IMG/VR virus record: IMGVR_UViG_3300037851_000307
Location: 1-51,634 of that record
Origin: a virus
Taxonomy: Duplodnaviria > Heunggongvirae > Uroviricota > Caudoviricetes
Strand: one strand, 5' to 3'
DNA length: 51,634 nt
The position numbers and the translations under genes are program-made. Of the stretch, positions 34,319 through 35,300 are shown piece after piece (position 1 is the first letter of the stretch; each line of letters starts with the position of its first letter). Under the pieces are notes generated by a model that was given only the letters and a program-made list of their open reading frames with translations, had not been told where the DNA came from and searched no databases.

Positions 34319-34657
34319 ATGGAATTTCAAAGAGACCCAAGAAAAGAAAGATTAATAGCTAATATAAAGATTCTAAAAGCAGAACTTAAAGTTCTTGCAG
34401 TAGAAATAAGACAATTAAAATCAACAAGAAAGCAATGCAAAAACGGATATGTTTCTGGTTTAGGCAATAAACAGAACGAGTTTCGTATTAAGCATATAGC
34501 TAGATGTTTGCTTCGTGGAAGAACGTTAGAGCAAATCGAACCAAAGCTAAAAGATCCTATGGATCCAAACCATACATACGTAAGAACGATGGCTGCTGCT
34601 GTTGTAAAGAAAGTCATGGAGGTAGCAGATGGCGAAGCTCTACGTGCTAGTTCGTAA
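34319..34657 (+). CDS. Basic hypothetical protein with HIARCLLRGR..EQIE motif, 112 aa
   Basis: Strong AAGGAG Shine-Dalgarno; overlaps the Pth2-like gene by 29 nt. Confidence 0.75.
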   Translation: MEFQRDPRKERLIANIKILKAELKVLAVEIRQLKSTRKQCKNGYVSGLGNKQNEFRIKHIARCLLRGRTLEQIEPKLKDPMDPNHTYVRTMAAAVVKKVMEVADGEALRASS

Positions 34658-34934
34658 CGAAGATCTTCCAAAGAACTATCAAGCAGTACAAGCTGGGCAC
34701 GCAGTTGCCCAGTTTTGTCTAGAGCATCCAGATAAATGGAAGAACGAAACCCTCGTATACTTAAGAGGTGGAGATCTTAACCAGATATTTGATTGGTGGA
34801 CAGTTCTTTGCGATAATAAAATAAAGGATATGTCTTATTTTCAAGAGCCAGATATAGACTATGAGATGACCGCAATAGCTGTACTGTCTAACGAAAAAAC
34901 AGACGAACTGTTCAAAGATATGAGATTAGTATAA
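34629..34934 (+). CDS. Peptidyl-tRNA hydrolase type 2 (Pth2/PTRHD1)-like protein, 101 aa
   Basis: KLYVLVRNEDL..QAVQAGHAV..W..TLVYL..EPD..MTAIAV..LFKDMRLV matches the Pth2 fold pattern (KMVVVIRNDL..AQGGHA..TAVAI..LKLL). GGAGG Shine-Dalgarno. Confidence 0.75.
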   Translation: MAKLYVLVRNEDLPKNYQAVQAGHAVAQFCLEHPDKWKNETLVYLRGGDLNQIFDWWTVLCDNKIKDMSYFQEPDIDYEMTAIAVLSNEKTDELFKDMRLV

Positions 34935-34952
34935 AGGATATGTACATCCTTT
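34929..34952 (+). promoter_or_regulatory. Candidate promoter (G-TATAAA) and near-palindrome AAAGGATATGTACATCCTTT ahead of the RNA genes
   Basis: Motif at 34929-34935; inverted repeat at 34933-34952 ends one base before the tRNA-like 5' end. Confidence 0.4.
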
Positions 34953-35040
34953 GCGGGTCGTGTACAAAACTCACAGCGAGAAGAGCTTATAATTCTTCAG
35001 CTGTACAAGTTTAGGGAGTGAAGCCCTACGATCCGCGCCA
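34953..35040 (+). ncRNA. Atypical tRNA-like RNA ending in G-CCA, with 13-bp acceptor+T branch and CU-UAU-AA loop
   Basis: GCGGGTCG(T) pairs with (A)CGATCCGC, followed by G-CCA. TAGGG/CCCTA T-like stem has the non-canonical loop AGTGAAG. GAAGAG/TTCTTC stem closes the 7-nt loop CTTATAA. No canonical D-arm. Confidence 0.65.
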
Positions 35041-35052
35041 TTTTTAATTCAT

Positions 35053-35128
35053 GCGTCATTAAGCTCAGTGGTAGAGCTAGTGCCTCTAAAGCACCTGGTC
35101 GCAGGTTCGAATCCTGTATGACGCTCCA
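35053..35128 (+). tRNA. Amber-suppressor tRNA (anticodon CUA) with glycine-type acceptor stem, 76 nt, encoded CCA
   Basis: Acceptor GCGTCAT/ATGACGC + T + CCA; D arm GCTC-AGTGGTA-GAGC; anticodon stem (A)GTGC/GCAC(C) with loop CT-CTA-AA; 5-nt variable loop; T arm GCAGG-TTCGAAT-CCTGT. Confidence 0.9.
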
Positions 35129-35148: not shown

Positions 35149-35300
35149 GGATTGAACATAATCCTGAAAATTATTGCTAACTAATCCCCTCTGCGCGTGA
35201 AACGCGCACATCATTTGTTGGAACAACAAATGTAAGCTAACAGATAGGGTAAGAATAGAGTGGGGTGGATATATCTAGGATTTATGGTACCCGCGAAACA
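35149..35300. other. Hairpin-rich non-coding element (ncRNA or DNA structural element)
   Basis: Perfect hairpins at 35192-35208 (7 bp) and 35212-35232 (9 bp), both with GAA loops. GGATT/AATCC hairpin at 35149-35164. Possible long-range pairing of 35186-35192 with 35257-35264. No ORF. Confidence 0.45.

What the first reader, a model, noticed from the sequence alone, without database searches (positions are those of the whole stretch)
34953..35040. Non-canonical tRNA-like RNA: 13-bp acceptor+T branch, G73-CCA, UAU loop, no proper D/T loops
The ends fold as 8/5 (or 9/4), giving the 13-bp branch that typifies tRNA-Sec rather than the 12 bp of normal tRNAs. The discriminator is G and CCA is encoded. 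The T-loop is AGUGAAG (no UUC) and there is no D-loop GG. The middle folds either as weak D-arm + 6-bp anticodon stem (loop CU-UAU-AA) + 4-bp variable arm (AGCU/AGUU), or as one long rod (ACAGC/GCUGU, AACU/AGUU). G73 plus a variable arm are SerRS determinants, so it could be serylated like described allo-tRNAs and misread AUA. Alternatively it is a non-translating decoy for anticodon nucleases, synthetases or the neighbouring Pth2-like protein.
Basis: partly seen in the sequence, partly recalled or inferred. Interest (0 to 1): 0.8.

Follow-up and report, generated by a model that had tools for sequence, protein, structure and literature searches.

The report
Orphan tRNA mimic before phage suppressor tRNA
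An 88-base RNA gene in an uncultured phage copies the amino-acid-accepting end of a tRNA but lacks the parts needed to read codons; it sits between a peptidyl-tRNA-hydrolase-like gene and a stop-codon-suppressor tRNA, a spot where a few unrelated phages carry other tRNA look-alikes, and its job is unknown.

Summary
The structural observation is correct and is not a chance fold. Window 34953-35040 (+) has a 13-bp acceptor/T branch (8/5 or 9/4), then G and an encoded CCA. It has a non-canonical T-like loop (AGUGAAG), no D-arm, and a 6-bp stem capped by CUUAUAA. It lies 12 nt upstream of a genuine tRNA(CUA).

The interpretation as a seryl-chargeable, AUA-misreading tRNA is not supported. The proposed variable arm does not form: the rod-shaped three-way junction is 8-10 kcal/mol more stable. 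No tRNA, tRNA-Sec or tmRNA model matches it. AUA makes up a third of the phage's own Ile codons.

The element is an orphan. The closest relative has only a terminator hairpin at this position, and no homolog was found, so covariation cannot be tested.

The same slot (PTH2-like gene, then the slot, then tRNA-CUA) holds unrelated NCCA-ended tRNA look-alikes in at least three other phages, including a cultured mycobacteriophage. This scan had already noted that class on other DNA.

Best reading: a non-decoding acceptor-end tRNA mimic that is an optional accessory of the cassette. The main rivals are a neutral relic and a structure that replaces the terminator.

The parts
34953..35040 (+). 88-nt tRNA-shaped element (the finding)
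   Evidence: three-way junction closed by a 9-bp stem, MFE -32.8 kcal/mol, z -4.3; the only >=13-bp NCCA top half in the genome
34953..34961 (+). acceptor-like 5' strand GCGGGUCGU; pairs with 35028-35036
   Evidence: pair probabilities 0.87-1.00
34962..34966 (+). 5-nt single-stranded connector GUACA where a D-arm would be
   Evidence: no D stem and no GG
34967..35012 (+). long rod of 5+5+6 bp (AAACU/AGUUU, ACAGC/GCUGU, GAAGAG/UUCUUC) with small bulges, capped by the 7-nt loop CUUAUAA (34986-34992), which contains TATAAT
   Evidence: pair probabilities 0.71-1.00; the alternative variable arm has probability 0.00
35013..35027 (+). T-like hairpin AGGG-AGUGAAG-CCCU with a non-canonical loop (no UUC, no U54-A58 type pair)
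   Evidence: probabilities 0.61-0.92
35028..35036 (+). acceptor-like 3' strand ACGAUCCGC
   Evidence: the last 10 nt of the element (ATCCGCGCCA) are identical to the 3' end of the phage's tRNA-Asp
35037..35040 (+). discriminator G and encoded CCA
35041..35052 (+). T-run and spacer TTTTTAATTCAT before the tRNA; a T-run followed by ..CAT also stands in relatives L153, L148 and L149
34934..34951 (+). small hairpin AAGGAT-ATGTAC-ATCCTT directly after the stop codon
   Evidence: fold with flanks
35053..35128 (+). canonical tRNA(CUA) amber suppressor, the cassette's RNA gene
   Evidence: 60.1 bits; compensatory stem changes against L153
34629..34934 (+). PTH2-like 101-aa gene of the cassette
   Evidence: followed by tRNA-CUA in most of about 130 loci; PF01981 matches 6 of 8 family members, best E 6e-11, though not the window's own copy
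34319..34657 (+). 112-aa upstream partner ORF that overlaps the PTH2-like gene
   Evidence: syntenic in L148, L149, L153 and L154

Best explanation
The element is a lineage-specific tRNA mimic that does not decode. It is made as part of the PTH2-like / tRNA(CUA) cassette transcript. It folds into a Y shape: a 13-bp acceptor/T helix ending in G-CCA, plus one long rod. Host tRNA-end enzymes most likely release it, with RNase P cutting at G1 and exonucleases trimming to the encoded CCA.

It has no D-arm and no T-loop, so it cannot form the tRNA elbow and its rod is too long for a decoding tRNA. It can therefore meet only proteins that read the acceptor end: the neighbouring PTH2-like hydrolase, synthetases, or host enzymes and toxins that act on the CCA end or the aminoacyl ester. 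In that role it would be a decoy, competitor or substrate, not an adaptor.

Shown: the structure, its non-chance nature, its position, its absence from relatives, and the recurrence of unrelated NCCA-ended mimics in the same slot. Inferred: transcription, processing, and any binding partner.
For: - The structure is real and rare: z = -4.3, and it is the only >=13-bp NCCA top half in the genome, against 0.04 expected per genome.
- It lies 12 nt upstream of a genuine tRNA on the same strand, with no credible ORF across it.
- All five helices are free of mismatches, and it folds more stably than the phage's real tRNAs.
- A model built from it finds only canonical tRNAs as its weak best matches in 80 kb, so its architecture is generically tRNA-like.
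- Non-decoding reading: the rod fold is favoured by 8-10 kcal/mol and the V-arm has probability 0; no tRNA or tRNA-Sec match; AUA is 33.5% of Ile codons.
- Slot recurrence: NCCA-closed units end <=30 nt upstream of the cassette tRNA-CUA in 7 of 82 unique loci, against 1.7 +/- 1.3 in shuffles.
- Four of those cases are convincing and unrelated in sequence: the window; L094 (Rfam tRNA 44 bits, 5-nt 'anticodon' loop); L148 (hairpin with G3.U70 + ACCA); and the cultured Mycobacterium phage ScoobyDoobyDoo, which has three units including a 13-bp hairpin + ACCA.
Against: - No homolog was found, so there is no covariation evidence.
- The closest relative, L153 (neighbouring protein 85% identical, flanks near-identical), has only a terminator hairpin here.
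- L001, L150, L151 and most of about 130 cassette loci have no such element, so the cassette does not need it.
- L149's element is only borderline similar (p about 0.01 global, 0.05-0.1 local). It lacks the T stem and CCA and is not found by the model.
- Perfect stems could equally reflect a recent origin.
- The slot enrichment is modest, and three of the seven hits are weak A/T-rich stems.
Confidence: 0.45

Rival explanations
1. Neutral relic. It is a decaying or recently arisen tRNA-derived insert, for example built from a copy of the phage's own tRNA-Asp 3' part plus a palindromic expansion. It sits in a fast-turnover slot and has no function of its own.
For: - It is absent from the closest relative and from most cassettes.
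- The slot holds different, partly degenerate RNAs in each relative: L149 folds weakly, L160 has z -0.7 and L148 z -1.95.
- Its loops have lost every tRNA consensus feature.
- Its 3' 10 nt and its T stem match the phage's own tRNA-Asp.
- Mukai et al. describe allo-tRNA(UAU) pseudogenes and inactive copies (PMC5389517).
Against: - All 29 predicted pairs are intact, with no mismatch inside a helix, and z = -4.3 is better than any of the 16 real tRNAs. A decaying tRNA should lose stems as fast as loops.
- The exact NCCA end is retained.
- Unrelated NCCA-ended units recur in this slot in other lineages.
Confidence: 0.27
2. Structural punctuation. The element replaces the intrinsic-terminator or 3'-stabiliser hairpin that relatives carry between the PTH2-like ORF and the tRNA. 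It would protect the upstream mRNA's 3' end and/or guide RNase P/E cleavage of the polycistronic transcript. Its tRNA likeness would matter only as a processing signal.
For: - L153 has a canonical terminator (8-bp stem + T8) at exactly this position.
- A stable helix followed by a T-run and ..CAT precedes the tRNA in the window, L153, L148 and L149.
- The window has no other terminator-like hairpin in the slot.
Against: - The T-run starts 4 nt (GCCA) after the closing stem, and that stem encloses 66 nt of structure. Both are poor for intrinsic termination, and the scan does not call it.
- A simple hairpin would do the job, so this reading does not explain the T-like hairpin placed flush against the acceptor strand or the exact N-CCA, which also follows the L148 hairpin (ACCA).
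Confidence: 0.18
3. A working, non-canonical decoding tRNA. This is the first reader's main idea: charged with Ser (or Ile) and reading AUA, delivered by EF-Tu or a SelB-like factor.
For: - The loop CU-UAU-AA has U33 and A37 on a 6-bp stem, and G73-CCA is encoded.
- AUA is a frequent codon in this phage.
- 8/4 tRNAs occur in phages, and allo-tRNAs can be serylated (PMC5389517).
Against: - There is no D-arm and no T-loop motif, so no elbow.
- The V-arm is not predicted, and the cloverleaf is 8-10 kcal/mol worse than the rod.
- No hit to tRNA or tRNA-Sec models at E<=10.
- A 13-bp branch disfavours EF-Tu (established knowledge; PMC5389517 introduction).
- No SelB, SerRS or other class II synthetase core was found in the 115 kb held.
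- Ser at AUA would hit about 23 codons per 1000 of the phage's own genes.
- The phage already has a canonical-bodied tRNA(UAU) at 106947-107038.
- The allo-tRNA(UAU) species tested by Mukai et al. were inactive in translation.
- It is not conserved in relatives.
Confidence: 0.05

Closest known systems
Bacterial tRNA-Sec (8/5, 13-bp acceptor domain)
   Same: 13-bp acceptor/T branch, G73, encoded CCA, 6-bp anticodon-type stem with a 7-nt loop.
   Different: No 6-bp D-stem with a 4-nt loop, no stable long variable arm, a non-canonical T-loop, loop triplet UAU instead of UCA, and no match to Rfam RF01852 at E<=10. No Sec machinery was seen.
allo-tRNA(UAU) group (Mukai et al. 2017, PMC5389517)
   Same: Irregular tRNA-like genes with a UAU loop and G73 or U73. 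They are probably not used in translation, are sporadic, and are linked to mobile or conflict loci; related 8/4 tRNAs occur in phages.
   Different: allo-tRNAs have a 12-bp branch (8/4 or 9/3), a long D-stem with a tetraloop and a long V-arm, and they score highly against the tRNA-Sec model. The candidate has 13 bp, no D-arm, no stable V-arm and no model hit.
NCCA-ended tRNA mimics between a PTH2-like gene and tRNA(CUA) in other phages
   Same: Same genomic slot and strand. Each is a closed helix ending in N-CCA and none has a usable decoding body. One mycobacteriophage unit is also a 13-bp helix + ACCA.
   Different: No sequence similarity. Those units are minihelices or keep a canonical T-loop and lack any anticodon-like loop. 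The candidate has a non-canonical T-like loop and a long rod with an anticodon-like 7-nt loop. No published description of this class turned up in the library searches.
tmRNA tRNA-like domain, including the TLD-only tmRNA of mycobacteriophage DS6A (PMC4131195)
   Same: Same order of parts: acceptor strand, single-stranded 'D' connector, long helix in place of the anticodon arm, T-arm, acceptor strand, NCCA.
   Different: No G3.U70/A73 alanine identity (G3-C, G73), no canonical T-loop, and no tmRNA hit by ARAGORN or Rfam.
D-armless mitochondrial tRNAs (e.g. nematode mt-tRNA-Ser; PMC7609411)
   Same: The D-arm is replaced by a short connector. ARAGORN's mitochondrial mode reads part of the region as a TV-loop tRNA(UAU).
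   Different: Those have a 5-6 bp anticodon stem and fit the ribosome through flexibility. Here the rod has 16 bp, the branch is 13 bp, and the setting is a bacterial virus.
Phage T4 RNAC and RNAD small RNAs (PMC9697503)
   Same: Small phage-encoded RNAs of unknown function. That they lie beside the T4 tRNA genes is my own knowledge.
   Different: No sequence or structural relation was tested, and the T4 RNAs are longer.

Membership tests
Canonical tRNA (Rfam RF00005) | Cloverleaf with D-arm, conserved G18G19, and a T-loop (T54-Psi55-C56...A58) forming the elbow | tested here: not met
   No GG in the D region, T-like loop AGUGAAG; no RF00005 hit at E<=10 on a 501-nt search; not called by ARAGORN down to -ps60
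Canonical tRNA (Rfam RF00005) | 7-bp acceptor + 5-bp T stem (12 bp), discriminator, CCA | tested here: not met
   13 bp (8/5 or 9/4); the discriminator G and the CCA are present
tRNA-Sec (RF01852) | 13-bp acceptor domain (8/5 in bacteria) | tested here: met
tRNA-Sec (RF01852) | 6-bp D-stem with a 4-nt loop; long variable arm; UCA anticodon; D/T-loop contacts kept (PMC7609411) | tested here: not met
   No D stem can be drawn (2 weak pairs at best); V-arm probability 0.00; loop triplet UAU; no RF01852 hit at E<=10
allo-tRNA (Mukai et al., PMC5389517) | 12-bp branch as 8/4 or 9/3 | tested here: not met
   13 bp
allo-tRNA (Mukai et al., PMC5389517) | [quoted passage not shown] | tested here: not met
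   defining features taken
allo-tRNA (Mukai et al., PMC5389517) | G73 or U73 discriminator; UAU is the commonest anticodon group | tested here: met
tmRNA / TLD-only tmRNA | G3.U70 with A73-CCA (AlaRS identity), canonical T-loop, SmpB-binding D-loop | tested here: not met
   G3-C82 pair, G73, non-canonical loop; no tmRNA hit
PTH2-cassette NCCA-ended tRNA mimics (class seen in this scan; not found in the literature searched) | Lies between the PTH2-like ORF and tRNA(CUA) on the same strand, closed by a helix of >=7 bp that ends in N-CCA, without a decoding-competent body | tested here: met
PTH2-cassette NCCA-ended tRNA mimics (class seen in this scan; not found in the literature searched) | Conserved among relatives through compensatory changes (claimed for the mycobacteriophage units in earlier notes) | tested here: not met
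   No homolog in L153, L148-L151, L001 or in 130 cassette loci
Intrinsic terminator | G+C-rich hairpin with a short loop, followed within 0-2 nt by a T-run | tested here: not met
   Not called by the scan; the closing stem encloses 66 nt and is 4 nt from the T5 run. L153's hairpin at the same site does meet the definition

The most novel reading that the evidence does not exclude
The candidate and the unrelated N-CCA-ended look-alikes found in the same slot in other phages (a mycobacteriophage, L094, L148, perhaps L160) form one functional class: acceptor-end tRNA mimics that work with the PTH2-like hydrolase and the amber-suppressor tRNA. They could be decoys or buffers against host enzymes that attack the CCA end or the aminoacyl ester of tRNAs. 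Alternatively they could be competitors that set how much of the suppressor stays charged. On this reading phages recruit such mimics again and again from different starting sequences.
Probability: 0.3. Interest if true: 0.8.

Novelty: new variant of a known kind. Interest (0 to 1): 0.5.

Why it matters
If the element is functional, it is an example of a phage RNA that keeps only the 'business end' of a tRNA, placed inside a cassette built around a tRNA-ester hydrolase and a stop-codon suppressor. That would point to a conflict or control layer acting on the tRNA acceptor end, distinct from the known phage answers to anticodon nucleases. The 13-bp helix would suggest a way to keep such an RNA away from EF-Tu and the ribosome. 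For annotation, it shows that tRNA finders and Rfam miss this kind of gene completely. If it is a relic, it documents how fast the RNA content of this slot turns over.

Tried and rejected
- ARAGORN at relaxed thresholds, intron mode and tmRNA mode: no call for the element on its strand. The mitochondrial mode gave a partial 69-nt 'TV-loop tRNA(UAU)' that ignores the real ends.
- Rfam at E<=10: nothing on the element.
- Homolog searches:
  - blastn against GenBank phages hit only the neighbouring tRNA.
  - IMG/VR pattern scans gave chance hits only: L095 lies inside a coding sequence, L152 between other tRNAs.
  - About 130 cassette loci from IMG/VR and metagenomes hold no look-alike.
  - The covariance model R1 found nothing in relatives or in the phage's own genome.
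- Closer relatives reached through neighbouring proteins:
  - L153, L148-L151, L154 and L160 were read.
  - The contigs carrying P0002, P0003/P0123, P0008, P0011 and P0013 returned no DNA.
- Class II tRNA-Ser ancestry: one tRNA-Ser (L090) shares a collinear block through the variable-arm region. After per-tRNA normalisation, tRNA-Ser genes as a group are no closer than any other tRNAs, so this was rejected as a systematic signal.
- tRNA-Asp ancestry: the 10-nt identical 3' end gives p = 0.008 uncorrected, which is not significant after correction. Kept only as a hint.
- Promoter in the loop (TATAAT): no -35 element, and the scan does not call it. Not pursued.
- attP or host-tRNA 3' fragment: rejected because the T-loop is non-canonical.
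- Small ORFs across the element: 20-24 aa only, judged not credible.
- RNA ligase family search: the control did not ring, so it is uninformative.

Full report
**What is there.** Window 34953-35040 (+) reads GCGGGTCGTGTACAAAACTCACAGCGAGAAGAGCTTATAATTCTTCAGCTGTACAAGTTTAGGGAGTGAAGCCCTACGATCCGCGCCA.
- an 8- or 9-bp closing stem;
- a 5- or 4-bp hairpin with a 7-nt loop, AGUGAAG, set flush against the 3' strand of that stem, giving 13 bp in all;
- G, then an encoded CCA;
- no GG where a D-loop would be;
- a 6-bp stem capped by CUUAUAA.

The element begins 18 nt after the stop codon of a 101-aa ORF and ends 12 nt before a canonical tRNA with anticodon CUA (35053-35128; 60 bits). The window belongs to a 115.6-kb IMG/VR virus record estimated at 69% complete, with 37.6% G+C and 16 ARAGORN tRNAs.

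**Is it more than chance?** Yes.
- The fold energy is -32.8 kcal/mol, z = -4.3. That is better than any of the phage's 16 real tRNAs, whose mean z is -1.5.
- I wrote a scanner for a 'tRNA top half': a 7-9 bp stem, a 4-5 bp hairpin with a 7-nt loop flush against the stem's 3' strand, then N-CCA.
- It recovers 14 of the 16 called tRNAs, two further uncalled elements, and this one.
- This is the only branch of 13 bp or more. Simulated genomes give 0.04 such hits each.
- It also lies next to a genuine tRNA on the same strand.

The rod is the minimum-energy and centroid structure. The cloverleaf scores -23.2 kcal/mol, or -24.5 without the two D pairs, and its variable-arm pairs have probability 0.00.

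The RNA is therefore best described as a three-way junction: a 9-bp acceptor-like stem, a 5-nt connector (GUACA), a 16-bp rod with small bulges, and a 4-bp T-like hairpin. Without a D-loop GG or a T-loop motif it cannot build the tRNA elbow. The rod has about 17 stacked layers, against about 10 for a D-stem plus anticodon arm (inference from standard tRNA geometry).

**Recognition by models.** ARAGORN does not call it at any threshold on its own strand. Rfam gives no match to tRNA, tRNA-Sec or tmRNA even at E<=10 on a 501-nt search. By contrast, two odd tRNA-like genes in other loci pass the tRNA gathering score: L094 with 44 bits and L081 with 31 bits.

**Context.** The 101-aa ORF belongs to a family in which 6 of 8 aligned members match Pfam PTH2 (best E 6e-11), although the window's own copy does not. 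A tRNA(CUA) follows this gene in most of about 130 loci from IMG/VR and metagenomes, usually within 0-35 nt. TAG ends 16 of 84 long ORFs in this phage, so its genetic code is standard.

**Conservation.** None was found.
- The closest relative is L153. Its PTH2-like protein is 85% identical, 27 nt up to the stop codon are identical, and the D and anticodon arms of the tRNA(CUA) are identical.
- In the slot, L153 has only a textbook terminator hairpin (GAAGGGTC-TATTCT-GACCCTTC + T8). The alignment shows a clean replacement of that hairpin by an 18-nt hairpin plus the 88-nt element.
- In the same alignment, the acceptor and T stems of the tRNA(CUA) differ by compensatory changes. That tRNA is clearly under structural selection, which gives a useful contrast.
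- Other relatives: L001, L150 and L151 have nothing in the slot. L154 has the tRNA inverted. L148 has a different 242-nt structured spacer. L160 has a 146-nt RNA with a perfect acceptor, a canonical T-arm and ACCA that no program calls.
- L149 has a spacer of about 70 nt with borderline similarity to the candidate (global z 3.0, p about 0.01; local p 0.05-0.1). It has no T stem and no CCA, and the covariance model built from the candidate does not find it.
- That model finds only canonical tRNAs as weak best hits in 80 kb (E 0.4-10), and nothing else in the phage's own genome or in five relatives' full records.

**Ancestry.**
- Against 228 unique tRNAs the candidate is generically tRNA-like (mean z 1.1), with no preference for any isoacceptor class.
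- The best normalised match is the phage's own tRNA-Asp. It shares the last 10 nt (ATCCGCGCCA) and the AGGG/CCCT T stem. This is p = 0.008 uncorrected, so it is a hint only.
- If true, G73-CCA is inherited from tRNA-Asp and is not a seryl determinant.

**Against a decoding role.**
- The structural points above all argue against decoding.
- AUA makes up 33.5% of Ile codons, 23 per 1000 codons. A Ser-inserting AUA reader would damage the phage's own proteins.
- The phage already has a canonical-bodied tRNA(UAU) at 106947-107038.
- No class II synthetase core or CCA-adding enzyme is encoded in the 115 kb held.
- Mukai et al. found that allo-tRNA(UAU) species, the nearest published analogues, did not work in translation. 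They define allo-tRNAs by a 12-bp branch, a long D-stem and V-arm, and high tRNA-Sec model scores. The candidate meets none of these.

**What lifts it above a mere relic.** Prompted by earlier notes of this scan (e1-5412088, e1-5435058, e1-4035529), I checked a cultured phage myself.
- In Mycobacterium phage ScoobyDoobyDoo (MZ820085.1), the 180-nt unannotated gap between the annotated peptidyl-tRNA hydrolase and tRNA(cta) holds three head-to-tail units, each closed by a helix and ending in N-CCA:
  - a 13-bp hairpin + ACCA;
  - a 7-bp acceptor with a canonical T-arm + GCCA, with no D-arm and no anticodon;
  - a 7-bp acceptor + ACCA.
- Across 82 unique regions upstream of cassette tRNA(CUA) genes, 7 carry an NCCA-closed unit ending within 30 nt of the tRNA. 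Shuffles give 1.7 +/- 1.3, with a maximum of 5 in 200.
- Four of the seven are convincing and unrelated in sequence: the window, L094, L148 and the mycobacteriophage. L148's hairpin (GGGGAAUC...GAUUCUCC-ACCA) carries the alanine acceptor signature G3.U70 + A73.
- The slot therefore recruits acceptor-end look-alikes repeatedly but sporadically.
- My literature searches found PTH2-like genes described in mycobacteriophage tRNA arrays (PMC5966550) and a TLD-only tmRNA in phage DS6A (PMC4131195). They found no description of these mimics.

**Verdict.**
- Probability 0.45: a non-decoding acceptor-end tRNA mimic that is an optional accessory of the PTH2-like / suppressor cassette. Its processing and its partners are inferred, not shown.
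- Probability 0.27: a neutral relic.
- Probability 0.18: a structure that merely replaces the terminator or stabiliser hairpin.
- Probability 0.05: a working AUA-reading tRNA.

It is not a member of the tRNA-Sec, allo-tRNA or tmRNA families. It is a new variant of the broad kind 'tRNA-like RNA'. It is also a structurally distinct instance of a slot-specific class that this scan has already met on other DNA.

Noticed in passing
L006, L007, L011, L013 (homologs of window 34629-34934): Four of eleven IMG/VR homologs of the PTH2-like gene carry one in-frame TAG each, at different codons (49, 33, 66, 34). Three of them (L006, L007, L013) lie directly beside a tRNA(CUA); none was called in L011. In those phages the hydrolase-like gene itself would need the suppressor. 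The window's copy has no in-frame TAG.
   Followed up: partly
genome 106947-107038 (-), outside the window: A 92-nt tRNA with anticodon UAU has a class II shape: a long variable arm with a GCGC/GCGC stem, canonical D and T loops, and discriminator A. Ile tRNAs are normally class I.
   Followed up: no
L160:465-610: A 146-nt RNA in the same slot has a 7-bp acceptor, a canonical T-arm (GGUGG-UUCAAGU-CCAUC) and ACCA, with a D-arm that looks split by an insert of about 60 nt. ARAGORN and Rfam call nothing, and no separate tRNA(CUA) is present on this 1087-nt contig.
   Followed up: partly
L148:2607-2634: The hairpin GGGGAAUC-(8 nt)-GAUUCUCC + ACCA + U5 carries G3.U70 and A73, the alanine acceptor-helix signature. 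It lies 19 nt upstream of the tRNA(CUA) and follows a cloverleaf-like structure of about 100 nt.
   Followed up: partly
L161:1539-1712 (Mycobacterium phage ScoobyDoobyDoo MZ820085.1, 29778-29951): Three unannotated head-to-tail N-CCA-ended units lie between the annotated peptidyl-tRNA hydrolase and tRNA(cta). The first is a 13-bp hairpin whose loop reads CUAAA.
   Followed up: partly
window 35192-35208 and the matching sites in L001, L148-L151, L153: A G+C-rich hairpin (GCGCG-UGAAA-CGCGC) about 65 nt downstream of the tRNA(CUA) is kept in all close relatives, with changes that preserve pairing. A second hairpin follows it (CATTTGTTGGAACAACAAATG). It may be a phage-specific transcription signal ahead of the exonuclease gene.
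   Followed up: no
genome 107039-107108 (-) and 99356-99447 (-), outside the window: The scanner finds two more top-half + NCCA elements that ARAGORN does not call: a 70-nt 7/5 element in the tRNA island and a 92-nt 7/4 element.
   Followed up: no
L045:2067-2130 and L055:2047-2110: An HDV-like ribozyme (RF02682) matches at 37-38 bits (gathering score 44) just downstream of the cassette tRNA(CUA) in one group of IMG/VR phages.
   Followed up: no
L077:1827-1900: One cassette carries a tRNA with anticodon UCA (opal) instead of CUA after the PTH2-like gene.
   Followed up: no
window 34822-34834 and 34932-34944: A 13-nt direct repeat, ATAAAGGATATGT, occurs once inside the PTH2-like ORF and once across its stop codon, just before the element.
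   Followed up: no
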